From positions 3,076 to 67,075 of the forward strand of contig JACDGK010000001.1 in the NCBI GenBank assembly GCA_013815345.1: DNA of 64,000 nt, read 5' to 3'. Positions 8,023 through 63,686 of this stretch are shown piece by piece (positions within the stretch are counted from its first letter, which is position 1; every line of letters starts with the position of its first letter). The translations under genes were made by a program, and so were the position numbers. The notes under the pieces were generated by a model. It worked only from the letters and a program-made list of their open reading frames with translations, did no database searches and was not told the origin of the DNA. The stretch comes from Patescibacteria group bacterium (GTDB lineage Bacteria; Patescibacteriota; Minisyncoccia; Phycocordibacterales; Phycocordibacteraceae).

Positions 8023-10065
8023 ATGACTTCCGCACCAGCTCCGGCACCTGCCCCTGGCAACAATTCCCGCACCCCTCAAAATAATGAAGACCATACAATC
8101 TCGTCAGTGCATCCTTCTCGAAATGACAGCCGATCCCCGCGGCCGCCGATGCGCGGCGGGAGATCCGACGGCCCAGGCGGCAATCGCGGTCCGCGCGGAC
8201 CACGGCCTCCTTTCAGAAATAACGGTCCTCGACCACCCGCTTCTTCGAACGGACGCCCGGGAGGCGCACGCAGTACTAATTCATCCAGCCGTCCCGGACG
8301 CGTGAGCAGACAAATACAGCGAACGTTGCGGAGACTTCCAGCTCCCAACTCCGTCGCAAAGAAACTCGCTGATTATTTTCCTGACATCGCTCCGGACAAT
8401 GTCGTTCGTGTCATTCCCCTTGGCGGTGTCGAGGAAGTGGGACGCAACATGATTGCGGTAGAGACGCAAGGCGAGATATTTGTTTTTGACGCTGGTTTTC
8501 AATTTACCTCTGAAGACACTTCTCCCGGTGTCGACTATATTCTTCCAAATACAAAGTATCTTGAGCACAACGCTGACCGTGTAAAGGCGGTATTTATTAC
8601 GCACGGACACCTCGACCACATCGGTGCTATTCCATTTATCATGAACCGTTTCGGCAATCCACCGATTTACACGCAGAATCTTTCTGCAGTCATGATTCAG
8701 AAACGGCAAGAGGAATATCCCGACATGCCTGCACCAAATCTTGTCGTTGTCGAGCCAGGCTCAACGCACACCATTGGTAAGACCCGGGTGAAATTCTTCC
8801 CCGTCACTCACTCAATACCTGATTCGATGGGCATCGCCATCGAAACACCATATGGCAATGTCATCGCAACGGGCGACCTGAAGCTCGACCATGAAAATGG
8901 TATTCCAGTCGAACACGAGCAAAAGAAATGGGGCGAGCTTGGCGCTCAAAAGAACCTTATGTTCATTGCGGACTCAACCAATGCCGAACGCGATGGGTTC
9001 TCGATTCCCGAACGCCGTGTGACTGAGACACTCGAAGAGATCATCAAAACTGTCCAGGGTCGCCTTATCATCGGTACCTTCGCTTCGCAATTTGACCGCA
9101 TGGTGCATATCATCGAGAGCGCAGAAAAGTATGGCAAAAAGATCGTAACTGAAGGACGCTCGATAAAAACTAATCTCGAAATCGCTCAGCAAACCGGGCT
9201 TCTAAAGATCGACAAAGGCACGCTTATCAGTTCACAAGACATGGCCGACTACCCGCCGGATAAAATCGTTATTCTCGCAACGGGCGCGCAAGGTGAGGAA
9301 TTTGCAGCACTCATGCGCATCGCGACCAAACAGCACAAGTTCGTGCAGCTCACGCCCCGTGACACTATCGTGCTTTCATCCTCCGTTATCCCAGGCAACG
9401 AAATCTCCGTACAAAAACTCAAAGATAATCTGTATCGAAATGGCGTTACGCTCATTCATTACAAATCATCTGACGTGCACTCGACCGGGCATGGCAATAC
9501 AGGTGAGCTGGTCTGGATCAATAAGCAAGTAAATGCGACATTCTTCATGCCTGCCTATGGCTATTATTCTATGACTTCCTGTCATGCAAAAGCTGTGGAG
9601 CAATCAGGACGACCTCGTGAATCAATTATTCTTGCTGACAACGGCATGGTCATTGATATGATCGACGGTGAAAAGCTTTTCATTCATAAAGAGAAAGTAC
9701 CTTCTGCGCCACTCATCGTAGATGGCTTTGCTATCGGCGACATGCAGGAAGTGGTAATTCGTGATCGTCAGGCGCTTTCAAAGGATGGCATGTTCGTCAT
9801 TATCGCGACGGTGAATCTAAAGACTGGCAAACTTCGAAAGTCACCGGACATTATTTCCCGCGGATTCATTTACCTTCGTGAATCCCAAGAGCTCTTGAAC
9901 ACGGCACGACTTCTTATTAAGAAGACGGTTGAGGACTCGACGCGCAATATGAACCCCGTTGATCTCGACTTCGTAAAGAATGAGATCTCGGATGTGATGG
10001 CGGGATATCTTTTCCAAAAGACCAACAAGGCGCCGATGGTTATTCCGGTGCTGATCGGAGTGTAG
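8023..10065 (+). CDS. rnj: Ribonuclease J (metallo-beta-lactamase/beta-CASP) with a roughly 120-aa Arg/Gly/Pro/Ser-rich N-terminal extension
   Basis: HGHLDHIG motif, RVIPLGGVEEVGRNM start of the core, beta-CASP and C-terminal domain. The N-terminus PAPAPAPGNNSRTP...RGGRSDGPGGNRGPRGPRPPFRNNGPRPP is low-complexity. Confidence 0.85.
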   Translation: MTSAPAPAPAPGNNSRTPQNNEDHTISSVHPSRNDSRSPRPPMRGGRSDGPGGNRGPRGPRPPFRNNGPRPPASSNGRPGGARSTNSSSRPGRVSRQIQRTLRRLPAPNSVAKKLADYFPDIAPDNVVRVIPLGGVEEVGRNMIAVETQGEIFVFDAGFQFTSEDTSPGVDYILPNTKYLEHNADRVKAVFITHGHLDHIGAIPFIMNRFGNPPIYTQNLSAVMIQKRQEEYPDMPAPNLVVVEPGSTHTIGKTRVKFFPVTHSIPDSMGIAIETPYGNVIATGDLKLDHENGIPVEHEQKKWGELGAQKNLMFIADSTNAERDGFSIPERRVTETLEEIIKTVQGRLIIGTFASQFDRMVHIIESAEKYGKKIVTEGRSIKTNLEIAQQTGLLKIDKGTLISSQDMADYPPDKIVILATGAQGEEFAALMRIATKQHKFVQLTPRDTIVLSSSVIPGNEISVQKLKDNLYRNGVTLIHYKSSDVHSTGHGNTGELVWINKQVNATFFMPAYGYYSMTSCHAKAVEQSGRPRESIILADNGMVIDMIDGEKLFIHKEKVPSAPLIVDGFAIGDMQEVVIRDRQALSKDGMFVIIATVNLKTGKLRKSPDIISRGFIYLRESQELLNTARLLIKKTVEDSTRNMNPVDLDFVKNEISDVMAGYLFQKTNKAPMVIPVLIGV

Positions 10066-54317: not shown

Positions 54318-55460
54318 ATGATCGATACATTCAAGAAAGCGGCGCCAGAAGTGCTCACCGGAATTCGCGAAGAAATGGCTGTCCGGCGTACGACCGAAGT
54401 TTTTCTGCTGTTCGTTAATGGCAGCCAGTTCGACCATCTCATCTTCCAGACCACAAGCAAGCTCGGCGTCTACTGTCTTGTGGCCGATCCTGCGTCGGTT
54501 ACGTCAGAGGATGTGCGAGCTCTGAGTCCGAAGGGCATCATTCTGTCAGGAGGCCCGGCGTCAGTCGTTTCCGAACCACCGCGTTTCGACAACGCGATCT
54601 TTGATCTCGACATTCCGGTACTCGGAATCTGCCTCGGCTTTCAAATGTGGGCAAAGTATGCCGGCATCCAAGTGGTGGAAGGGACGAGTAAGGAGTTTGG
54701 CATGAATGACTTGCGCGTCTTAAACCCCAGCGGCTTGCTCGAAGACTTCGAGCAAAACACAACGACTCCCGTTCTTCAAAGTCACGGTGATCAAGTACTG
54801 CTGGATGAACGACTCACCCTTCTCGGCTCCACCACCTTCCATGGTGATGCAGTCGCGGTGTCTGCGGCTTCACTCGGACATCTTCACGGTGTCCAGTTCC
54901 ATCCCGAAGTCACCGAGACTTTGAAGGGTTCGAAAATTTTCGAGAACTTCTGCTTTGGTATCTGCGGCGCAAGGGATCGATTTTCGGCCCATAATATTGC
55001 CGAACAAAAAATTGCGACTCTTCAGAAAAAAATCGACGACAAGAAAGTACTACTCGCTCTCTCAGGTGGTGCTGACTCGTCGACGGTTGCCTATCTTCTG
55101 AAGCATGCCACCATCGGACGAGGCAACAGATACAACGGGGTGATTCCATTCACTCGGCATATGAGCATGGAGGCTTGCTGCGGCAAGAATCCTGTCTACC
55201 ACGTAGGCAAGCTTTACACCGCCATCTGCTCTCTCATTTCCGATGAGATTCATCGTCTTGTAGGACTTGAGACATACGTGTATCTGACCTCTCAGATGGG
55301 CAGAAGTCTGTCGGACCCATGGTCTGCATGCGTGGAGGTATGCGGCGGAGATACAACATCTGCGCAACGTCAGATGATTGAAGCAATCCTCGAGCGCAAC
55401 TTGGCAAATGCCAACGAAACTACCCAGAAAATCGTGAAAGGAGAATTGAACCTATTCTGA
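54318..55460 (+). CDS. guaA: GuaA-like protein: class I glutamine amidotransferase plus the start of a PP-loop ATP pyrophosphatase. The C-terminal half is not GuaA-like, so this is possibly a pseudogene.
   Basis: GATase GICLGFQMW and VQFHPEV, PP-loop LLALSGGADSSTVAYLL. After LLKHA the sequence no longer resembles GuaA and stops at 380 aa. A +2 frame shows a GGLLRQES fragment resembling the GuaA VDNGLLRLNE motif. Confidence 0.55.
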   Translation: MIDTFKKAAPEVLTGIREEMAVRRTTEVFLLFVNGSQFDHLIFQTTSKLGVYCLVADPASVTSEDVRALSPKGIILSGGPASVVSEPPRFDNAIFDLDIPVLGICLGFQMWAKYAGIQVVEGTSKEFGMNDLRVLNPSGLLEDFEQNTTTPVLQSHGDQVLLDERLTLLGSTTFHGDAVAVSAASLGHLHGVQFHPEVTETLKGSKIFENFCFGICGARDRFSAHNIAEQKIATLQKKIDDKKVLLALSGGADSSTVAYLLKHATIGRGNRYNGVIPFTRHMSMEACCGKNPVYHVGKLYTAICSLISDEIHRLVGLETYVYLTSQMGRSLSDPWSACVEVCGGDTTSAQRQMIEAILERNLANANETTQKIVKGELNLF

Positions 55461-55474
55461 AGGGATCGATCCTC

Positions 55475-55510
55475 AGTACCCATGTCGTAACGACATGGGT
55501 ACTTTTTTTA
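55475..55510. terminator. Bidirectional terminator AGTACCCATGTCG-TAA-CGACATGGGTACT followed by TTTTTTT
   Basis: Perfect 13-bp stem between the convergent guaA-like and S51 genes. Confidence 0.6.
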
Positions 55511-55511
55511 T

Positions 55512-56207
55512 TTACAGATTGAAAGATTCTTCAGGATTAAGTTCCCTTTTTGTTCCATCTGCAAGATAAATAACACACGACTTTGTGCCAGCGCATAAAG
55601 CGCTGCCATTTTCTATAACTAGACCACTTTCTTCTGGTAAGCAAACAATCGGCAAGTTATTATCAATTGCCCAAGTTCTAAATCTGTCATTCTGTTCATC
55701 CTTAAAGTGACAGGCTACCGAAAAATTATTTAGAAGATTAAATCCCGATACGTCTTCCAGACCTATTTTATTTTCATCATCATGAGTATTAATTTTCTTA
55801 CCCATTATGATTGCACCGGCACTGCCTCCGTAAACTTGACCACCAGCTTCAATGTATTGAATTAAAATATCAGCAAATCCAGAATTTTTAAGCTCCTGCA
55901 TAAGGCTCCATGTATTGCCGCCTCCGATATAAATCCCATTAAATTCTTTAAGGGTTTCGAGAGTATATTTTGATGGGTCGTCTACCGTTTCGAACTGAGT
56001 ATCCGCTCTTTCATGAAGTTCGGTAATGCTGTTCATCCACAAATGCGCGGTAGGATATAGCTTGTGTCCGCGGAGAGCTATGGGTATGTATAAAAAGCGT
56101 CCATTTTTTGGTAATGTACTAAAAAAAAATTTGTCGAGGGGGAATGATTGCTTCTCATTACCACCCCCCGACAAATATATTCGGTTGTTCTCCTTTATGT
56201 TTTGCAT
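55512..56207 (-). CDS. Peptidase S51 family (dipeptidase E/cyanophycinase-like)
   Basis: GGGNTWSL...GGSAGAII matches the S51 catalytic Ser region. Confidence 0.75.
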   Translation of the reverse strand: MQNIKENNRIYLSGGGNEKQSFPLDKFFFSTLPKNGRFLYIPIALRGHKLYPTAHLWMNSITELHERADTQFETVDDPSKYTLETLKEFNGIYIGGGNTWSLMQELKNSGFADILIQYIEAGGQVYGGSAGAIIMGKKINTHDDENKIGLEDVSGFNLLNNFSVACHFKDEQNDRFRTWAIDNNLPIVCLPEESGLVIENGSALCAGTKSCVIYLADGTKRELNPEESFNL

Positions 56208-57382
56208 GTTTGTATCGCTTTGCGCAGCTCGTAAATGTTAGCGTTACAAATATACACCAAGCGGTCGAAATAGGCTTGACTCGTCTCACTACTTCGAGGT
56301 GGCGGAAGCCCTAACGTCTCACAGACCCTCAGATTAACGAACCTTTCGATCTCCAAGAGGGCAAGCTGGACGGCGGCCTCGCGGTTAATCGACGGCTTGA
56401 TGAATTGCGCCCAATAATCGAAATAATACGCAAGGATGCTATATACATCCGAACCGTAGTACTTCTCACTGAGCACTTTCGCAAACCGCCTGAACTGGAG
56501 ACCTGAACCCTTGTTTGCAACTTGGACGCCGCATAGCACCAAGAGCGCAATCGTCCGACATGAGTCGAACATTTCTCGCGTCCCATTAGCAGTCCATGGC
56601 ATAAGCACATCGAAGTAGGAATCGGTTTTGTTTATGGCCCATGCCATTCTTTCAAGACCGAAGCCGATATCGCTGATTGGAATCGCCGGACGGTTCGCTT
56701 GGGGAATAAGAAGATAAGCGGCATCTCCAAGCTCAAGCCCCCCGTAGGAAAAAAAGAGCTCAAGTGCCGAAAATTTCCCGGTTCCCCAATCATTAACGGA
56801 TGTTCTCATGACGACAATGAAGTCGTTCATATGAAGACCGAGCTTTGAAAGAATTGTGCACCAGTGGTCTACTGACCGCAGATGCTCTGCAAACTCTGCC
56901 CCCATCTTTTCCGTGCAAACGTTCACGAAGGAGGTTGATGTCCCTTCTTGCGACTCGACATGCGGTTGAAACTGCATACGAACACATGGCTGCGCCACAA
57001 ACACTTTGTCATTTCTGATTTTTTGATTGCGATGAATGACATCATCAAACATCTGCACACCAGCAATGACCAGGTCAGTCTGACCCTCGAAATTCGCAAT
57101 GTTGCGCGGAGGTGCCAGATCAAAGCCTACCGAACGAAAGTATTCGCTCATCCGTGTGCTGATTTGTACAGGGGTCAGCATCTTCTTCCGCTTGGTATAT
57201 GTGCGGAAAGGATAACCTCCTTTGTCGCACTTATGCCAGCCGCAGACCGAGACATCCATTTTGGTAGATGGCTTAGAGAAAAAAGTTCTGTCACAGGAGC
57301 TACACGAGCGCCCCTGCCATCCTCTTTCGGCCATGAATTCATTCACGGCCTTAGAGGTATCCACAATTGTTGTTTCAGACAT
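56195..57382 (-). CDS. Stand-alone alanyl-tRNA synthetase catalytic-domain paralog (AlaRS-N-like) with a Cys4 insertion
   Basis: LVIAGVQMFDDV (AlaRS motif 1 region FTNAGMNQFKDV), QPCVRMQ (QRCVR), DIGFGLERMAWAINK (DTGMGLERL motif 3) and RTIALLVLCGVQVANKGSGLQFRR (start of the tRNA-recognition domain). It lacks the editing and C-Ala domains. Insertion CSSCDRTFF...CGWHKC. Confidence 0.6.
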   Translation of the reverse strand: MSETTIVDTSKAVNEFMAERGWQGRSCSSCDRTFFSKPSTKMDVSVCGWHKCDKGGYPFRTYTKRKKMLTPVQISTRMSEYFRSVGFDLAPPRNIANFEGQTDLVIAGVQMFDDVIHRNQKIRNDKVFVAQPCVRMQFQPHVESQEGTSTSFVNVCTEKMGAEFAEHLRSVDHWCTILSKLGLHMNDFIVVMRTSVNDWGTGKFSALELFFSYGGLELGDAAYLLIPQANRPAIPISDIGFGLERMAWAINKTDSYFDVLMPWTANGTREMFDSCRTIALLVLCGVQVANKGSGLQFRRFAKVLSEKYYGSDVYSILAYYFDYWAQFIKPSINREAAVQLALLEIERFVNLRVCETLGLPPPRSSETSQAYFDRLVYICNANIYELRKAIQTCKT

Positions 57383-57560: not shown

Positions 57561-58850
57561 ATGCTCGATATCCGATTCATTCTCGACAACGTCGAACTGG
57601 TCAGACAAAACACGCAGGACCGGAACGCCAACGCTGATGTTGACAAGACAGTTGCTCTATACGGGCAATTGAAGCAGAAAAGACAGAGTCTCGAAGAGGC
57701 TCAATACCGATCCAACCAGATCTCTGGACAATTCAAGGGTGCCGACGAAGTGACCCGCGAACAACTTAAGACAGAGGTTGCAGGTCTCAAACAGATCATG
57801 GCAACACTTAAGGAAGAGATCGCGGTCATCGAAAAGGAGTACACCGAGGAAGTGCTCAAGATTCCCAATCTTGTCGCTCCCGATGTTCCTTCCGGCAAAG
57901 ATGAGCATGGCAACGTGCCCATCAAGCATGTCGGTGAGCCCACCAAGTTTGGCTTCAAGCCACTCGATCATGTCGAGCTCGGCAAAAAGTTGGACATCCT
58001 GGACTTTGAGGCGGCGGCGAAAGTCACTGGCTCGAAGTTCTACTTCTTGAAGAACGAAGCTGTTCTTCTCGAACTCGGTCTCATCCGCTTCGCACTGGAC
58101 CTGGCGATCAAGCACGGCTTTACGCCGGTGACAACGCCAGAACTTGCTCGTGACGAGATCATCACAGCTTCTGGATTCTCTCCGCGAGGACCCGAAAGCC
58201 AGATCTACTCCCTTACAGAAGGAGACCTGAGCCTTATCGGTACCGCCGAGATCACCATCGGTGGTTATCTGGCCAAGACCGTGATTCCAGAAGAGGATCT
58301 TCCGATCAAGATCTCCGGCGTCAGTCATTGCTTCAGAACTGAAGCTGGTAGCGGCGGTCGTGAGAGCAAGGGACTTTATCGGGTACATCAGTTCAGCAAG
58401 GTCGAACTCTACCAATTCGTTCATCCCGACAAGAGCGCAGCCGCTCACGAAGAGATGCTCGCAATCGAGGAAGAGTTTTATCAAGCCCTGAAACTTCCCT
58501 ACCGCGTTTTGCTCATGTGCAAGGGCGATCTGGGAACCCCCGCGTACCGGAAGTACGACATCGAGGCGTGGATGCCTTTTGTCGGCGAAGGTGGCGGATA
58601 TGGTGAAGTGACGTCCGCGTCAAACTGCACCGATTTCCAAGCACGACGCTTGAACACCAAGTTCAAGAACAGTGCTTCTGGTAAGACTGACTTCGTCCAC
58701 ACCCTCAACGGCACAGCTGTTGCTGTTACTCGAACGATGCTCGCCATCCTCGAGAACAACCAGCAGGCCGACGGTACGGTACTCATTCCCGAAGTGTTGC
58801 ATCCCTACGTTGGGGTGCAGAGCATCAAACCAAAAAACAAGAAATTCTAA
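57561..58850 (+). CDS. serS: Seryl-tRNA synthetase
   Basis: N-terminal coiled-coil arm, class II motif 2 HCFRTEAGSGGRESKGLYRVHQF and motif 3 GTAVAVTRTMLAILENN. Confidence 0.9.
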   Translation: MLDIRFILDNVELVRQNTQDRNANADVDKTVALYGQLKQKRQSLEEAQYRSNQISGQFKGADEVTREQLKTEVAGLKQIMATLKEEIAVIEKEYTEEVLKIPNLVAPDVPSGKDEHGNVPIKHVGEPTKFGFKPLDHVELGKKLDILDFEAAAKVTGSKFYFLKNEAVLLELGLIRFALDLAIKHGFTPVTTPELARDEIITASGFSPRGPESQIYSLTEGDLSLIGTAEITIGGYLAKTVIPEEDLPIKISGVSHCFRTEAGSGGRESKGLYRVHQFSKVELYQFVHPDKSAAAHEEMLAIEEEFYQALKLPYRVLLMCKGDLGTPAYRKYDIEAWMPFVGEGGGYGEVTSASNCTDFQARRLNTKFKNSASGKTDFVHTLNGTAVAVTRTMLAILENNQQADGTVLIPEVLHPYVGVQSIKPKNKKF

Positions 58851-58858
58851 ACCCTATT

Positions 58859-58892
58859 CCCTTAGCAACTGAGTTGCTAAGGGAATTTTTTA
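58859..58892 (+). terminator. Rho-independent terminator CCCTTAGCAAC-TGA-GTTGCTAAGGG followed by AATTTTTTATT
   Basis: 11-bp perfect stem 9 nt after the serS stop. Confidence 0.6.
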
Positions 58893-58931
58893 TTCACAAG
58901 ACTAAAGTGGTAAATTTATACTCCAACTTAA

Positions 58932-59100
58932 CCTAGGACTCGAACCAAATAAATGGCTTCAGATATTGATTTTCTGATTTTGTGCAAAATAGGAAAAGTT
59001 CGAGCCCATGACTCGTTCAAAAACTATGTTGAGAAATATGACCGATTTAGCCGTCTAGGTAGGTCTCACATGACTGCTGCCGCAAAAGGATTCGAACTGT
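58932..59100 (-). other. Two decayed tRNA T-arm-like fragments (CCTAGGACTCGAACC at 58932-58946 and GGATTCGAACT at 59089-59099) without complete cloverleaves
   Basis: Reverse complements contain the canonical GGTTCGAGTCC / GTTCGAATCC T-loop box. The first shares an exact 14-mer with the tRNA-Gln at 61834-61847. Neither has a pairing acceptor or T-stem. Confidence 0.3.
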
Positions 59101-59237
59101 CTCGGTCGCCCTTGACTGCTATGGCTTAGAATATAGGTTTTTTGGTAAAAATGTCCAAAATCGCTTCGCGAGTAAAAATCAAAGGGTCAAAGTATCCAAG
59201 GGCCAAAGAATCAAAATAATACAAAAATACAAAAGTT

Positions 59238-61079
59238 CTAAGCTTCAACCTTGCGGAAACGGAACACAAACTCACGGCCAGAATCCCACCCGCTGCCAGG
59301 CTCCGCCCAACTGCGGTCGAGCCACAAACCGCCGTCATACCGGCGCAGGCGGAAGACGCTCGGGTCGCCATCGCGAGCCGCAATTTGCTTCATACCAATA
59401 TGTACGTATTCTCTTAAGGGTTGGTCTTTATATTTGAGACGATAGTTAGGTCCTGTATCTGGGGGACAGAGTTCCAGTCCGAGGGCTTCCGCTCGTTCAT
59501 AAATCTGATCAGTAGTAGCGTTTGTCTTAAATCCAAGATCGGCGACAGTGAGGCGAACAAGCTTCGCTTCTTCGCGATTTTCGGAAACGGTAAAATCAGG
59601 ATTCCCCATCATTGATTTTGCATAATCAGAGATGTTGATTCCAGCCGATTCCATTTCGGCAATGAGTTGCTCTTTTGACTTTCCTCCTATTTCCACGCTA
59701 TCTCTCCTAATTTTCTTTTCGGGAAATGAGGTATAGACATGTTCTAGATGTTCCGACAATTTTTGAAAAATGCCCGGTTCGAGTTGTCCGACATACGCTT
59801 TAGTTTTTTCAGTTATTTCGCTCGGCACATGAGCGATCTCGTCTCTGGTACATTCAAATATGACAAGCATATCTTCCTCAGTATTTCTCCCTTCCCGAAG
59901 TTCGTCGATACGAGGGTCTTTATCATATCCGAAGCCCTCGATAGTTCCGTTGATTTCGTAAAGAAAGGTTAAGTCGTCTTTAGTAAACGGTTCCTCTTTT
60001 TCACGTTTTTGGTCAAGAGCGGTCAATATTTTCATGTCATTACTCTTCTTGCGATATGAATCAGCTTCGCCACCAAAATCTTGAAGTTTTGCATCAAGTG
60101 CTTCTTGCATGATCGGCTCTACTCCTTGGTGTGGCAAAATACCTCGCACTTCGCCAATCTTGTTCTCTCCATTCATACGGATAGCGAGGCGGGGTTGGGT
60201 CGGCTCGCCTGATGAATCGTTAGTGTAATACACATAAAAATCGCCTGATTCTATCTGCGTCTCGGCCGTCGAACGTCCGGCAGTACACCAGCCAGTGCCC
60301 TTGCCTTCTAGAGATTCAAATAATTGCTCTGCATCACCATTTCTTCCTTGCTGATATTTTTTCCATTCACCCCTGACTTCTTCACGACCTTCCATTGAGG
60401 CTGCGAGAGATTTTGAAATGAGTTCAGCATAAAGAGTTGGAAACTTCTTAGAGAACGCTTCTTTGATTTCTGGTTCCCTGAGGTGCTTGTTATCCTCTTT
60501 TACTTTTAAGTAAATATCGGCAATTTGGGCAAGCGGTTCGCGGTAGATATCCGGATATGGAGCGACTGTTGTACTAGTTCGCTTTTTGAATTCACCTCGT
60601 TCTTTGTCGAATTGGGAAAGCTTGGTGACCTGGTTCCAAGCGTAGTATTTAAACCAAGCAGGATATACCGCATCATTTGAAGAAAGATAGTCAATCCAGG
60701 CATCAAGCGAGTGCTTCTGGTCTTCGATCGCCACGCTCATCATCTGCTCGCGGACGTTTTCTGGAATTTCTTCTACCGCTTGACCTCGCTCACGAGCAAT
60801 ACGTTGCTGGAGCTCGAAATATGATTCTGGAAAGTTCTCTTTCTTGATGATGAATGCGTCGTATATCTTATTCCGAAACATGTCTAGGTTTCGTTCACGA
60901 ACTCGCTCGTCTGGATTGAGAAAAACATTCTCCAAGCGATCCATATACGCCTCAACGCGTTCCGCAGGATCATTTGGTATTTTTTCTTCGGTCTGTCTCT
61001 CTTCTCGCTCCACGGCTCGATTTACCTCAGGAGAGGTTTGGAGTTCTGGGTTTTTGAGATGAAGCGGATGTTTTTCCAT
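59238..61079 (-). CDS. Large hypothetical cytoplasmic protein (613 aa), no recognised domain
   Basis: Long charged ORF (Glu/Lys/Arg-rich), no TM helix, no nucleotide-binding or nuclease motifs found by eye. Confidence 0.6.
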   Translation of the reverse strand: MEKHPLHLKNPELQTSPEVNRAVEREERQTEEKIPNDPAERVEAYMDRLENVFLNPDERVRERNLDMFRNKIYDAFIIKKENFPESYFELQQRIARERGQAVEEIPENVREQMMSVAIEDQKHSLDAWIDYLSSNDAVYPAWFKYYAWNQVTKLSQFDKERGEFKKRTSTTVAPYPDIYREPLAQIADIYLKVKEDNKHLREPEIKEAFSKKFPTLYAELISKSLAASMEGREEVRGEWKKYQQGRNGDAEQLFESLEGKGTGWCTAGRSTAETQIESGDFYVYYTNDSSGEPTQPRLAIRMNGENKIGEVRGILPHQGVEPIMQEALDAKLQDFGGEADSYRKKSNDMKILTALDQKREKEEPFTKDDLTFLYEINGTIEGFGYDKDPRIDELREGRNTEEDMLVIFECTRDEIAHVPSEITEKTKAYVGQLEPGIFQKLSEHLEHVYTSFPEKKIRRDSVEIGGKSKEQLIAEMESAGINISDYAKSMMGNPDFTVSENREEAKLVRLTVADLGFKTNATTDQIYERAEALGLELCPPDTGPNYRLKYKDQPLREYVHIGMKQIAARDGDPSVFRLRRYDGGLWLDRSWAEPGSGWDSGREFVFRFRKVEA

Positions 61080-61170
61080 ACATTGATTTTAGCAAAAATG
61101 AACCTTTTTCGCTATACTATTTTCAGATTGGTTTCATTGAACGGTTACGGCTTTTCAAGACCATTCCGAT

Positions 61171-61665
61171 TCACATATGCTGAGAGCGCAGCCGGAGGGT
61201 CTTAGTTAGAAAGATTGAAACGGATGCGAAAAGTGCAAATCCCGCTCCAAGCAGGATTAGCACATCAGGAGATAGAAATGAGGCTATAGCGCCAGAAATT
61301 ATGCCAGGTAAAGCAGATGCCAGAGATTGCACACTAGCATTTATCCCTAATACTTCTCCTTGCGTATCATTGCCAGTGCTACTGCTTAAAAGACTGGTGA
61401 TCATCGTATAAGACAGGGCGACGCCCAGAGCGATGATAGGTGTGGCAATCAGTAACCAGCCCCATTGGGGAGCCCGTGGTTCCTCATACCTTTCCTTAAA
61501 ACTAGGGTACTCAAAAAACAAGCGTGTGAATTTGTTTTGCTCTTCCTTTGTGGCTGATTTAAGTAGCGCATCCGTAACAAAGTAAACGTTATCGATTCCT
61601 TGGGGATTTTTGGAGAGACGTATTATAGCTAGCAAAACCCGCAACTCTAAGAGTTTCCGCATCAT
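61171..61665 (-). CDS. Hypothetical membrane protein (two or three TM helices)
   Basis: Hydrophobic C-terminal half and no motif. Confidence 0.45.
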   Translation of the reverse strand: MMRKLLELRVLLAIIRLSKNPQGIDNVYFVTDALLKSATKEEQNKFTRLFFEYPSFKERYEEPRAPQWGWLLIATPIIALGVALSYTMITSLLSSSTGNDTQGEVLGINASVQSLASALPGIISGAIASFLSPDVLILLGAGFALFASVSIFLTKTLRLRSQHM

Positions 61666-61822
61666 ACTAGAAGAATGAGTAGTAAGCAGTCACGCCTGTA
61701 TTCTAACGTGGAAAGAAGCAGAATACCATTAGATACCTATAGATACCTACAAAGCTATTTTGAGGCTTTACTCAATCATATTGCGAATCTATAACTTGCT
61801 AGCATCTCGGACTAGCTCAAGT

Positions 61823-61896
61823 TGGCTGCGAGACTAGGACTCGAACCTAGATAACGACCTCCAGAGGGTCGCGTCCTACCATTAGACGATCTCGCA
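61823..61896 (-). tRNA. tRNA-Gln (anticodon CUG), CCA encoded
   Basis: Manual cloverleaf: acceptor UGCGAGA/UCUCGCA (U1-A72), D-arm GUCU-AAUGGUA-GGAC, anticodon arm CGACC-CUCUGGA-GGUCG, variable loop UUAU, T-arm CUAGG-UUCGAGU-CCUAG, discriminator G, CCA. Confidence 0.8.
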
Positions 61897-62018: not shown

Positions 62019-63686
62019 TTATGATTTCGCTGACTCTTTTCTCTCGAGCGCTGCCTTCAGGAAAGCAGTGAAAAGTGGGTGCGGCGTGAGCGGGCGCGCT
62101 TGGAGTTCAGGGTGGAACTGCGTACCGAGATAGAAGGGGTGCTTTTCACGAGGAAGCTCGGCTATTTCCATGAGCACGCCGTCGGGAGAAACTCCAGAGA
62201 ATACAAGGCCAGCATTTGTAATCTGCTCGATGTAGTCAGGATTGATCTCGTAGCGGTGACGATGACGTTCTTCCACGGACGCGGCGCCGTAGGCGCCGCG
62301 TGCAACCGTTCCCTCTTTCAGGTCTGCTGTATACACCCCGAGTCGCATTGTGCCGCCATACTTTCCTTCTTTAATAAGCGTTGCTTGCTCAGGCATAACG
62401 TCGACAACCGGATTCGTTGTCGTGGGATTGATCTCTACCGTATGCGCATCTTTGAGACCAATCACATTTCGTGCGTATTCGATCACGAGCATGTGCATGC
62501 CGTAGCAGAGACCGAAATACGGAATTTGATGTTCGCGCGCATATTTTGCTGCAAGTATCTTGCCCTCGATACCGGTTTCTCCGAAGCCGCCGGGAACGAT
62601 GATGCCGTCATATTTCGCAAGCGTTTCAATGTCCGTGCCACCACCCGTTTCTTTTGCAAAATCCTTCGCGTTCACCCACTCGATCTTCGGCTTCACGCCG
62701 ATCTCTGCACCGGAAAATTTAAGCGCCTCAATCACCGAAAGATACGCGTCAGAAAGCACGAAGTCGCCCGTATCAAAATACTTACCCACAATACCGATCG
62801 TGAGAACCTTATCACTTTTCTTTGAACGTTCAACGAAGTTTCGCCAGTCACGCATGTCAGCAGGGACTTCTTTTGAAAGTGCGAGTGCGTCAAGCAGCAG
62901 ATCGCCGAAATGATCCTTCTCAAAGTTTAGTGGCACGTCATAAATACTTTCGACATCGGGTGCCGAGATGATGTGGTCAGGACGGACGTTACACCAAATA
63001 GCGAGTTTCTCTTTTCGCTTCTCATCCATCGAAGTATTCGAGCGAGCGATAATGAAGTCGGGCTGTACACCGTATGAATTTAACTCGCGCACTGCAGTCT
63101 GCGTTGGCTTGGTTTTCATTTCACCAATAGTGTTCGGAACCGGTAAATACGAGACGAGCAAGTAGCGCACGTCGTCAGGATGCTTAAGACGCATTACACG
63201 AGCAGCTTCGATGAAAAGCGCATTCTGAAAATCTCCAACCGTTCCCCCTATTTCGATGACAGAAATTTGGCTGCCGTTGTGGGCAGCCGCAGCTTCAATG
63301 CGTTGAATGATTTCATCTCGCACGTGCGGAATCGCCTCAACGAATTTTCCGTTGTATCCCAAACTACGCTCTCTGGTGATAACCGCCTGATATACCATGC
63401 CACTCGTCATGTAGTCTTCGGGCGTAAGATCACGGCCGAGAAACCGTTCGTAGTTTCCCATGTCCTGATCGGTTTCAAGCCCACTACGAAGCACAAAAAC
63501 TTCGCCATGCTCGGTGGGGTTCATCGTGCCGGCATCGACATTCAAATACGGATCGATCTTTACGAGATTTACCCCGAAGCCGCGCTCCTTCAGAATGAGG
63601 CCCGTTGAAGAAGTCACGATGCCTTTCCCGACGCCTGACATCACCCCGCCCAGTACGAAAATATATTTATGACCTTCCGTTGCCAT
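62019..63686 (-). CDS. pyrG: CTP synthase
   Basis: N-terminal KYIFVLGGVMSGVGKG amidoligase P-loop and a C-terminal GATase domain (GLCYGMH). Length 555 aa. Confidence 0.95.
   Translation of the reverse strand: MATEGHKYIFVLGGVMSGVGKGIVTSSTGLILKERGFGVNLVKIDPYLNVDAGTMNPTEHGEVFVLRSGLETDQDMGNYERFLGRDLTPEDYMTSGMVYQAVITRERSLGYNGKFVEAIPHVRDEIIQRIEAAAAHNGSQISVIEIGGTVGDFQNALFIEAARVMRLKHPDDVRYLLVSYLPVPNTIGEMKTKPTQTAVRELNSYGVQPDFIIARSNTSMDEKRKEKLAIWCNVRPDHIISAPDVESIYDVPLNFEKDHFGDLLLDALALSKEVPADMRDWRNFVERSKKSDKVLTIGIVGKYFDTGDFVLSDAYLSVIEALKFSGAEIGVKPKIEWVNAKDFAKETGGGTDIETLAKYDGIIVPGGFGETGIEGKILAAKYAREHQIPYFGLCYGMHMLVIEYARNVIGLKDAHTVEINPTTTNPVVDVMPEQATLIKEGKYGGTMRLGVYTADLKEGTVARGAYGAASVEERHRHRYEINPDYIEQITNAGLVFSGVSPDGVLMEIAELPREKHPFYLGTQFHPELQARPLTPHPLFTAFLKAALERKESAKS

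What the first reader, a model, noticed from the sequence alone, without database searches (positions are those of the whole stretch)
58932..61896. tRNA-Gln plus decayed tRNA T-arm fragments bracketing a 2.9-kb segment with orphan genes (possible integration scar or islet)
An intact tRNA-Gln(CUG) lies at 61823-61896 (minus). The exact 14-mer CTAGGACTCGAACC from its T-arm recurs in direct orientation at 58933-58946. A second T-loop-like box (GGATTCGAAC) lies at 59089-59099. Neither fragment folds into a tRNA. Together with the intact tRNA they flank the 613-aa orphan protein and a small membrane protein. Partial tRNA 3' copies in direct repeat are the classic footprint of elements integrated at tRNA genes. 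No integrase remains, which suggests an old or decayed islet.
Basis: partly seen in the sequence, partly recalled or inferred. Interest (0 to 1): 0.55.

Follow-up and report, generated by a model that had tools for sequence, protein, structure and literature searches.

The report
Decayed DGR islet beside tRNA-Gln
The 2.9-kb stretch next to tRNA-Gln is the leftover of a small mobile element that normally carries a diversity-generating retroelement (DGR); the hypervariable target gene and the element's tRNA-derived joining site remain, but the mutagenic machinery is absent.

Summary
In detail: tRNA-Gln(CTG) lies at 61823-61896(-), the exact 14-mer recurs at 58933-58946, and GGATTCGAAC is at 59088-59097.

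The reading as a decayed islet at a tRNA gene is largely right, but three details change.

1. The 613-aa ORF is not an orphan. It has more than 2,355 homologues at 75-85% identity across Patescibacteria, and it is the target (variable protein) of a DGR. In 35+ related loci a reverse transcriptase (RT) and a template repeat (TR) sit beside it, and TR/variable-repeat (VR) mismatches fall almost only on TR adenines (21/21, 24/24).

2. Intact elements such as L160 (about 3.9 kb) read: tRNA-Gln, 143-nt trailer, RT, Avd, TR, target, then an exact 24-nt repeat of the tRNA 3' end.

3. This is a head-to-tail junction of the element's two ends. RT, Avd and TR (about 1.7 kb) are missing from all 64 kb.

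Close relatives lose synteny exactly at the tRNA 3' end and at the serS stop. At the same tRNA site relatives carry serine-recombinase elements, or a solo target flanked by a direct repeat.

It is a new member of a known kind, of moderate interest.

The parts
61823..61896 (-). Intact tRNA-Gln(CTG). It is the left boundary and a recurrent integration site in relatives.
   Evidence: The tRNA is identical in L164, where homology with the window ends at 61825 and a large serine recombinase gene abuts the tRNA 3' end.
61171..61665 (-). 164-aa ORF, an MFS transporter gene fragment (NCBI H0X32_00345). It fills the place where RT-Avd-TR lie in intact elements.
   Evidence: It matches MFS_1 profile positions 84-172 of 347, below the curated cutoff. 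Only one other homologue exists (61% over 57%). No DNA match to any related locus.
61080..61195 (-). Conserved block upstream of the target gene, probably its promoter/5'UTR. This is the left end of the element-derived DNA.
   Evidence: Conserved in more than 30 loci. The homology with L160, L168, L022/L023 and L030 starts at 61195; with other loci it starts up to about 60 nt further in.
59238..61079 (-). 613-aa DGR target (variable protein) gene, full length (NCBI H0X32_00340).
   Evidence: More than 2,355 homologues at 75-85% identity, with no Pfam, PHROG, NCBIfam or PDB sequence hit. RT and TR lie adjacent in related loci.
59251..59371 (-). Variable repeat (VR), encoding about the last 45 residues.
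   Evidence: Patterned hypervariability in alignment A1. It aligns to the L160 TR at 77.7%. 16 of 27 TR-invariant adenine columns are changed, against 5 of 70 non-adenine columns.
59141..59237 (-). Conserved 3'UTR of the target, including a small GC hairpin CTCGCGAAGCGAT at 59160-59172.
59099..59136 (-). 'P-arm', the element's right-end sequence (ATATTCTAAGCCAT...GACCGAGAC).
   Evidence: Conserved in L160 attR, the L014, L163 and L036 right ends and L168.
59076..59098 (-). 'Core': the 23-nt 3' fragment of a tRNA-Gln-type gene (AGTTCGAATCCTTTTGCGGCAGC), comprising T-loop, T-stem, acceptor 3' strand and discriminator.
   Evidence: It aligns with the exact 24-nt direct repeat of L160 (8036 and 11980) and with the 3' ends of intact tRNA-Gln(TTG) genes.
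58933..59075 (-). 143-nt 'trailer'. In intact elements it lies between the tRNA 3' end and the RT stop codon.
   Evidence: nhmmer E=4e-43. The same 143-144 nt length is found in L160-L163 and L014. Inverted repeat. Terminator-like hairpin.
58934..58936 (+). TAG at the position of the RT stop codon of intact elements. This is the right end of the element-derived DNA; the RT coding sequence itself is gone.
   Evidence: L160 8037-8201 matches window 59097..58933, and the called RT gene of L160 ends at 8198-8200. tblastn with two RTs finds nothing in the window.
58856..58886 (+). serS terminator hairpin, part of the host right flank. serS is 57561-58850(+).
   Evidence: Synteny with L080 (84% nt) ends at 58854.

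Best explanation
Window 58933-61195 is the remnant of a small integrative element of Patescibacteria whose cargo is a diversity-generating retroelement (DGR).

Intact relatives are about 3.9 kb and sit at the 3' end of a tRNA gene, here tRNA-Gln. Their order is: tRNA 3' core, 143-nt trailer with a terminator-like hairpin, RT, Avd, template repeat (TR), promoter block, 613-aa target gene whose last ~45 codons are the variable repeat (VR), 3'UTR, P-arm, and a second copy of the 21-24-nt tRNA 3' core.

In those elements the RT copies TR RNA with misincorporation at adenines, and the cDNA overwrites the VR. This diversifies the C-terminal domain of the target protein.

The window retains only the recipient half (promoter block, intact target gene, 3'UTR, P-arm, core), followed directly by the trailer. 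That is, the two ends of the element are joined head to tail through the core, as in an excised circle or a tandem array. The 1.7-kb RT-Avd-TR half is replaced by chromosomal DNA: the serS terminator on one side, and an MFS gene fragment plus tRNA-Gln(CTG) on the other.

The islet lies at tRNA-Gln(CTG), a site that related genomes use for serine-recombinase elements and for a direct-repeat-bounded solo-target islet.

What is shown: the homology map, the TR/VR adenine bias in relatives, the att repeats in relatives, and the synteny breaks.

What is inferred: that the window's copy arrived by site-specific integration and later lost RT-Avd-TR, and that its VR is now frozen.
For: Target family:
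- More than 2,355 homologues. The whole protein is about 80% conserved except a patterned hypervariable C-terminus.
- TR/VR pairs in 35+ loci have mismatches almost only at TR adenines, e.g. L003 21/21, L004 24/24, L160 18/18.
- RT, bAvd and TR are adjacent in the closest homologues L160-L163.
- L160 and L162 are 21.8 kb from two different metagenomes. They differ at 3 positions, all in the VR.

Att structure:
- L160-L162 have an exact 24-nt repeat of the tRNA-Gln 3' end on both sides of the cassette.
- L017 has an exact 21-22-nt copy of the tRNA-Ser 3' end. L034, L014, L036 and L168 have repeats of the tRNA 3' end plus flank.
- 12 of 33 cassettes have a tRNA within 1.5 kb with its 3' end facing the cassette. 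The background is 0.04 tRNA per kb.

Window map:
- L160 9885-12003 matches window 61195..59075, and L160 8037-8201 matches window 59097..58933. The two blocks overlap at the core. L160 8202-9884 (RT, Avd, TR) is absent.
- No RT, Avd, TR or recombinase is found anywhere in the 64 kb.
- The window VR keeps the adenine signature: 16 of 27 adenine columns changed, against 5 of 70 others.

Islet status:
- Synteny breaks fall at 61825/61812 and at 58854.
- GC is lower than in the flanks.
- L168 has the same site and the same block-target-P-arm-core, bounded by a repeat of its own tRNA-Gln(CTG) 3' end. Its pyrG is only 61% identical to the window's, while the target is 85% identical.
Against: - The window has no clean direct repeat of its own tRNA-Gln(CTG) 3' end. 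The core matches it at only 16 of 23 positions, and the 14-mer match stops at the T-stem. Integration at this particular tRNA is therefore inferred from relatives, not shown.
- The MFS fragment and about 630 nt between the tRNA and the element DNA are unexplained.
- 20 of 33 related cassettes have no tRNA nearby.
- Only 64 kb of a 193.5-kb contig could be examined. An RT/TR elsewhere in the genome cannot be excluded.
- No recombinase lies inside the direct repeats of the 3.9-kb elements, so the enzyme and mechanism of mobility are unknown.
- 21-24-nt exact repeats are not typical of large serine recombinases (own knowledge).
Confidence: 0.8

Rival explanations
1. The locus is not decayed. The 613-aa gene is a live remote target, diversified in trans by a DGR (RT, Avd and a matching TR) located elsewhere in the same genome, outside the 64-kb window.
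For: The ORF is full length and aligns end to end with active homologues. The VR shows the adenine-specific pattern. The 3'UTR and its hairpin are retained. About half of the related loci with 10-kb flanks also lack an adjacent RT. Remote targets are known and are missed by standard pipelines (Roux 2021, PMC8144416).
Against: No RT, Avd or TR is present in 64 kb. The window VR has 5 of 70 changes at TR-invariant non-adenine positions, against 1-2 of 70 in VRs with a resident TR. This fits drift after loss of the TR. The 3'UTR hairpin has lost one stem pair. This rival changes only the 'frozen' part of the main explanation, not the identity of the element.
Confidence: 0.3
2. The arrangement is not an integration product. 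It is the scar of a chromosomal rearrangement between two DGR islets, one at tRNA-Gln(TTG) near serS as in L160/L163 and one at tRNA-Gln(CTG) near pyrG as in L003/L168. That event joined two synteny blocks and deleted RT-Avd-TR.
For: serS and pyrG are not neighbours in any relative examined. In L160-L163 serS lies 6-7 kb from a tRNA-Gln(TTG) islet. The window's core and trailer are of the TTG type, while the adjacent intact tRNA is CTG.
Against: The orientation of the trailer relative to serS is opposite to that in L160, so no single inversion or deletion gives the observed order. L168 shows block-target-P-arm-core already sitting at tRNA-Gln(CTG) with its own direct repeat, without serS nearby.
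Confidence: 0.25
3. The T-loop-like boxes are chance or generic T-loop matches, and the 613-aa gene is an ordinary native gene. There is no islet.
For: The exact identity to the window's tRNA extends only 3-4 nt beyond the universal T-loop box. The 14-mer alone has modest significance.
Against: There is a 165-nt homology (E=1e-42) to tRNA 3' end plus trailer in four other genomes. Att repeats are seen in relatives. Synteny breaks fall on both sides. The target is 85% identical to its L168 homologue while pyrG is only 61% identical.
Confidence: 0.03
4. Window 58900-59140 encodes an unannotated structured RNA, such as a tmRNA-like, permuted or intron-containing tRNA, rather than att debris.
For: The intergenic region is about 350 nt and holds two T-loop-like boxes. 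The trailer length is invariant, and it holds an 11-bp inverted repeat and a terminator-like hairpin. Group I introns hide some tRNA genes in Patescibacteria (PMC13011429, seen, not read).
Against: ARAGORN (tRNA and tmRNA) and all 4,227 Rfam models at E<=10 find nothing there. The consensus fold of four trailers shows almost no covariation. The sequence is found only next to DGR cassettes.
Confidence: 0.05

Closest known systems
Diversity-generating retroelements of Patescibacteria/CPR (DGR 'clade 2' of Roux et al. 2021, PMC8144416; Paul et al. 2017, cited there)
   Same: Homologous loci have RT, Avd, TR and a target with a C-terminal VR and adenine-specific TR/VR mismatches. The target has no recognisable domain, signal peptide or TM segment, as reported for CPR targets.
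   Different: The window holds only the target half, with no RT, Avd or TR. Avd is called on the strand opposite to RT and TR in L160-L162. I did not find the tRNA-linked att structure described in the papers I could search.
tRNA-integrated genomic islands and integrative elements. One example is the Legionella pneumophila Corby genomic island said to carry a DGR; the only link seen here is that the paragraph on the Corby DGR in Wu et al. 2018 (PMC5758913) cites a paper on integrase-dependent excision of Legionella genomic islands, and the island's tRNA integration is own knowledge, not checked
   Same: An intact tRNA at one end, a direct repeat of the tRNA 3' end at the other (exact 21-24 nt in L160 and L017), absence from the same site in close relatives, and lower GC.
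   Different: The elements are tiny (about 3.9 kb) and usually have no recombinase inside the repeats. The window copy lacks a clean repeat of its own tRNA and preserves an attP-like head-to-tail junction.
Remote or orphan DGR targets (VR not next to an RT)
   Same: An intact target gene with a VR showing the adenine signature and no adjacent RT or TR. Many homologues are likewise solo.
   Different: Here the flanks show how the solo state relates to the full element: the same promoter block and the same P-arm/core, with RT-Avd-TR excised. Whether a trans-acting DGR exists is unknown.
Large serine recombinase (LSR) prophages and islands integrated at tRNA-Gln(CTG) in relatives (L164, L165, L003)
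   Same: They occupy the same attachment site as the window's islet. In L003 the LSR element carries the same DGR.
   Different: No LSR gene or remnant is present in the window. The long exact repeats seen in L160 and L017 are unlike typical LSR sites (own knowledge).

Membership tests
Diversity-generating retroelement (DGR) | DGR-type reverse transcriptase encoded at the locus | tested here: not met
   tblastn with the RTs of L003 and L160 finds nothing in the 64-kb window. The feature is met in about 33 homologous loci.
Diversity-generating retroelement (DGR) | TR/VR repeat pair differing almost only at TR adenines | tested here: not met
   There is no second copy of the VR in the window. 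Indirectly, against five heterologous TRs the window VR differs at 16 of 27 invariant adenines and at 5 of 70 other invariant positions. The feature is met in 35+ relatives.
Diversity-generating retroelement (DGR) | Target gene with the VR at its 3' end | tested here: met
   The VR covers the last ~45 codons, 59251-59371.
Diversity-generating retroelement (DGR) | VR-bearing domain adopts a C-type lectin / FGE-like fold | tested here: inconclusive
Diversity-generating retroelement (DGR) | Accessory protein (Avd) | tested here: not met
   There is no Avd in the window by tblastn. bAvd PF22296 is present in L160-L162.
tRNA-integrated genomic islet | Intact tRNA gene at one boundary, with synteny to relatives ending at its 3' end | tested here: met
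   Homology with L164 ends at 61825, and with L165-L167 at 61812.
tRNA-integrated genomic islet | Direct repeat of that tRNA's 3' end at the other boundary | tested here: inconclusive
   In the window there is only the 14-nt T-arm identity and a 23-nt tRNA-Gln-type core matching at 16 of 23 positions. Clear repeats exist in L160 (24 nt exact), L017 (21-22 nt exact) and L168.
tRNA-integrated genomic islet | Integrase or recombinase gene | tested here: not met
   There is none in the window. Serine recombinases lie at the same tRNA site in L003, L164 and L165.
tRNA-integrated genomic islet | Absent from the same site in close relatives; atypical composition | tested here: met
   L164 (pyrG 93%) and L080 (serS 94%) have other DNA there. 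GC is 0.43-0.46 against 0.50-0.55 in the flanks.

The most novel reading that the evidence does not exclude
DGR cassettes of Patescibacteria may be mobile as recombinase-less mini-islets of about 3.9 kb. On this reading they excise as circles and re-integrate at the 3' ends of tRNA genes through a 21-24-nt core flanked by conserved arms (P-arm and the 143-nt trailer), using a recombinase supplied in trans. The window would then preserve the circle or tandem junction (P-arm, core, trailer). The target-only half could persist, or even move, as a separate module that a resident DGR can diversify in trans. That would make the 613-aa variable protein a horizontally traded, pre-diversified gene cassette.
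Probability: 0.25. Interest if true: 0.7.

Novelty: new member of a known kind. Interest (0 to 1): 0.5.

Why it matters
DGRs are the commonest reverse transcriptases in CPR bacteria (PMC8632793), yet their targets and their spread are poorly understood.

This locus and its relatives show three things:
- One 613-aa protein of unknown function is a major DGR target. By top-hit identity ranges it is about as conserved as the housekeeping enzyme CTP synthase across Patescibacteria.
- The cassette often behaves as a small islet at tRNA genes, with recognisable att repeats and conserved arms.
- Target-only remnants like the one in this window are common.

This gives concrete sequences (core, P-arm, trailer) with which to test how DGRs move between ultrasmall bacteria. 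It also gives a way to recognise 'orphan hypothetical' genes as former or remote DGR targets.

For the window itself the result is mostly clarifying. An apparent orphan gene beside odd tRNA fragments is explained by a known kind of element.

Tried and rejected
- tmRNA, permuted tRNA or another known RNA in 58.9-59.2 kb: ARAGORN and Rfam at E<=10 found nothing.
- A TR copy or RT in the window: sensitive blastn and tblastn were negative.
- A serine recombinase remnant between the tRNA and the target: negative.
- Exact-sequence look-up of the source contig to read beyond the window: serS and the 613-aa protein are 'not on record'. The window's genome is also not a GTDB species representative. The remaining 130 kb of the contig could therefore not be checked.
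- Function of the target by sequence: there are no Pfam, PHROGs, NCBIfam or PDB hits.
- Function of the target by structure: there are only weak C-type-lectin/FGE-like and GNAT-like hits. The C-terminal-only model was too poor to search.
- An empty site in close relatives: none is clean, because serS and pyrG are not neighbours in any relative.
- The idea that the 164-aa ORFs of the window and of L080 are the same gene: rejected.
- Covariation support for a trailer RNA structure: four sequences are too few and too similar.
- Paul et al. 2017 could not be read, as it is not held.
Full report
**1. Observation**

The window holds one tRNA gene, tRNA-Gln(CTG), at 61823-61896 on the minus strand (ARAGORN; Rfam tRNA 60.5 bits). 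The 14-mer CTAGGACTCGAACC occurs exactly twice, at 58933-58946 and inside the tRNA at 61834-61847, both on the + strand. It has no other hit with up to two mismatches, against 0.32 expected. GGATTCGAAC is at 59088-59097. Neither fragment is called as a tRNA, tmRNA or any Rfam family at E<=10.

Between them lie a 613-aa ORF (59238-61079, minus) and a 164-aa ORF (61171-61665, minus). serS (57561-58850, +) and pyrG (62019-63686, minus) flank the segment. GC is 0.43-0.46 inside against 0.50-0.55 in the flanks.

**2. The 613-aa 'orphan' is a DGR target**

- It has no Pfam, PHROG, NCBIfam or PDB sequence match.
- It has more than 2,355 homologues. The best 120 are 75-85% identical over the full length and come from Paceibacteria, Sungbacteria, Minisyncoccia and other Patescibacteria.
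- In an alignment of 35 homologues the protein is about 80% conserved throughout, except for the last ~45 residues. There, fixed and free positions alternate: DSxGxPxVFxLxRxxDGLWLxxxWAxPxxxWxPDxxFVFRLRK.
- In locus L003 the 3' end of the gene has an inverted 135-nt imperfect copy next to a reverse transcriptase gene. All 21 mismatches are adenines in that copy.
- The same holds in 35+ loci: 24/24 in L004, 20/20 in L009, 18/18 in L160, and so on.
- The closest homologues with context (L160-L163, 84-85% aa) encode an RT (RVT_1), bAvd (PF22296) and TR beside the target.
- L160 and L162 are contigs from two different metagenomes, 21.8 kb at 99.96% identity. They differ by three substitutions, all inside the VR.

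This is therefore the variable protein of an active DGR family. Roux et al. 2021 place CPR DGRs in a clade restricted to Patescibacteria, whose targets lack recognisable domains (PMC8144416).

**3. Anatomy of intact elements**

In L160-L162 the order is:
- tRNA-Gln(TTG)
- a 143-nt 'trailer'
- RT (opposite strand)
- Avd
- TR
- a conserved ~115-nt block
- the target gene
- a conserved 3'UTR with a small hairpin
- a 'P-arm' (ATATTCTAAGCCAT...GACCGAGAC)
- an exact second copy of the last 24 nt of the tRNA (GGTTCGAATCCCTGTCGGGCAGCA, at 8036 and 11980)
- a hairpin typical of a tRNA terminator

That is the layout of an element integrated at the 3' end of a tRNA gene, about 3.9 kb long and with no recombinase inside the repeats.

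Other loci show the same logic with other tRNAs:
- L017 has an exact 21-22-nt copy of the tRNA-Ser(GCT) 3' end just beyond the RT.
- L034, L014 and L036 have repeats of the tRNA 3' end plus flank.

Of 33 RT+target cassettes, 13 have a tRNA within 1.5 kb, and in 12 of them the tRNA 3' end faces the cassette. The background is 0.04 tRNA per kb. Some versions carry a serine recombinase (L003, L004, L009, L032, L034, L042, L052). The association is frequent but not universal, since 20 of 33 cassettes have no tRNA nearby.

**4. The window mapped onto the intact element**

- L160 9885-12003 matches window 61195..59075 (78.5% over 2,126 nt). This covers the block, target, 3'UTR, P-arm and core.
- L160 8037-8201 matches window 59097..58933 (82.4% over 165 nt). 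This covers the core and trailer, up to the RT stop codon.
- The two blocks overlap at the core. In the window, therefore, the right end of the element runs through the core straight into its left end. This is the order expected at the junction of an excised circle or between tandem copies.
- L160 8202-9884 (RT, Avd, TR; 1,683 nt) has no counterpart.
- Nothing in the 64 kb resembles an RT, Avd, TR or serine recombinase.
- Where RT would be, the serS terminator begins (58856-58886).
- Where Avd-TR would be, there is a 164-aa ORF that matches only part of an MFS profile. It has a single partial homologue in the protein collection, so it is a gene fragment.
- L014 also has P-arm, core and a partial trailer after its target. 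Such junctions are therefore not unique to the window.

**5. What the two boxes are**

The second box lies inside the 23-nt core, 59076-59098 (AGTTCGAATCCTTTTGCGGCAGC in tRNA sense). This is a T-loop, T-stem 3' strand, acceptor 3' strand and discriminator of a tRNA-Gln-type gene. It is near-identical to the cores of L168 and L036, but matches the window's own tRNA at only 16 of 23 positions.

The 14-mer is the last part of the trailer. The trailer is 143-144 nt long, without indels, in the window, L160-L163 and L014, and it is found nowhere else among the loci fetched. It contains a terminator-like hairpin (59001-59015), and an 11-bp inverted repeat of which the 14-mer box is one arm.

The trailer's last ~35 nt resemble a shortened P-arm plus the start of a core. 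The 14-mer is thus probably an older tRNA T-arm relic carried within the element (inference). It is not a repeat generated from the present tRNA-Gln(CTG).

**6. Islet status at tRNA-Gln(CTG)**

- The closest relative by pyrG is L164 (93% aa), with ftsX-pyrG-tRNA-Gln(CTG) and an identical tRNA. Homology with the window stops at 61825, and L164 continues with a large serine recombinase gene ending at the tRNA.
- L165-L167 (85-86% aa) lose homology at 61812. L165 then has HEPN_AbiU2, a large serine recombinase and a terminase.
- L003 has tRNA-Gln(CTG), a serine recombinase and the full DGR.
- On the other side, L080 (serS 94% aa) loses homology at 58854 and continues with an IS transposase and a type I restriction subunit.
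- L168 encodes the closest target homologue whose context could be read (85% aa). Its order is pyrG, two genes, tRNA-Gln(CTG), 146 nt, block, target, 3'UTR, P-arm, core, a hairpin, and then GGATCGAGATTCCTAGCCCAGTAGCAA. That last sequence is a direct repeat of L168's own tRNA 3' end (GGTTCGAGTCCTAGCCCAGCAGCAA). L168 has no RT, Avd or TR.
- pyrG of L168 is only 61% identical to the window's, whereas the target is 85% identical.

The same cargo at the same tRNA site in distantly related genomes, and different cargo at that site in close relatives, point to site-specific horizontal acquisition.

**7. Mechanism and state**

Shown in relatives: adenine-directed rewriting of the VR from the TR by RT/Avd, and integration next to tRNA 3' ends with core repeats.

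Inferred for the window:
- An element of this family came to lie at tRNA-Gln(CTG).
- It lost RT-Avd-TR, either through tandem copies followed by deletions or through a circle recombining via that region.
- It left an intact, promoter-bearing target gene.

The window VR differs from five TRs at 16 of 27 invariant adenines, but also at 5 of 70 other invariant positions. VRs with a resident TR differ at only 1-2 of 70 such positions. This fits a VR that was diversified and has since drifted.

I cannot exclude a trans-acting DGR elsewhere in the genome, because only 64 kb of a 193.5-kb contig is visible and exact look-ups failed.

**8. Function of the protein**

**9. Novelty**

DGRs in CPR, remote targets, DGR-bearing islands and tRNA-linked islets are all known. 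The window is a decayed member of these kinds.

I did not find the following described in the literature I could search: the compact recombinase-less islet form, its conserved arms, and the head-to-tail junction relic. Paul et al. 2017 was not readable.

Interest is moderate.

Noticed in passing
L160 vs L162 (whole 21.8-kb loci); differences at target-gene positions 1802, 1808 and 1822: Two contigs from different metagenomes are 99.96% identical. Their only three substitutions lie in the VR of the DGR target, a direct sign of ongoing diversification.
   Followed up: partly
L004 9573-15205: There is a tandem duplication of TR plus target. The two VRs are 100% identical over 185 nt, and a single RT serves both.
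   Followed up: no
L160 9232-9579 (+), likewise L161 and L162: The bAvd gene is called on the strand opposite to RT and TR, between them. This is an unusual cassette layout.
   Followed up: no
window 59160-59172; also L160, L163, L036, L168, L169 about 65-80 nt after the target stop: A conserved small hairpin, CTCGC-GAAG-GCGAG, lies downstream of the VR. It may be the DGR target-recognition hairpin. The window copy has lost one stem pair.
   Followed up: partly
window 58933-59075 and L160 8059-8201, L163 8069-8211, L014 8045-8188: The 143-nt trailer is length-invariant. It holds an 11-bp inverted repeat 51 nt apart and a terminator-like hairpin. Its function is unknown.
   Followed up: partly
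window 54318-55460 (+): A 380-aa ORF combines a class-I glutamine amidotransferase domain with the C-terminal ~115 residues of archaeal-type AdoMet synthetase (PF01941) and a short NAD-synthase-like stretch. This is an odd fusion.
   Followed up: no
window 55400-56000: There is a local GC trough of 0.37, against about 0.50 nearby, over the peptidase S51 gene (55512-56207, minus).
   Followed up: no
window 56195-57382 (-): A 395-aa ORF has no Pfam domain and only a weak N-terminal match to alanine-tRNA ligase models.
   Followed up: no
L165 12098-19644: Downstream of tRNA-Gln(CTG) lie HEPN_AbiU2, a 438-aa large serine recombinase and a terminase fragment. This is a prophage-like element at the same attachment site.
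   Followed up: no
L080 3782-8251: In the closest serS relative, serS is followed by an NDK-like ORF, an IS transposase (rve) and a type I restriction R subunit. The serS 3' flank is therefore a variable region in this lineage.
   Followed up: partly
window 58953-59129 (+): This 58-aa ORF overlaps the trailer and core, has no family match and is most likely spurious. A similar spurious call covers the attR region in L160 (11937-12254).
   Followed up: partly
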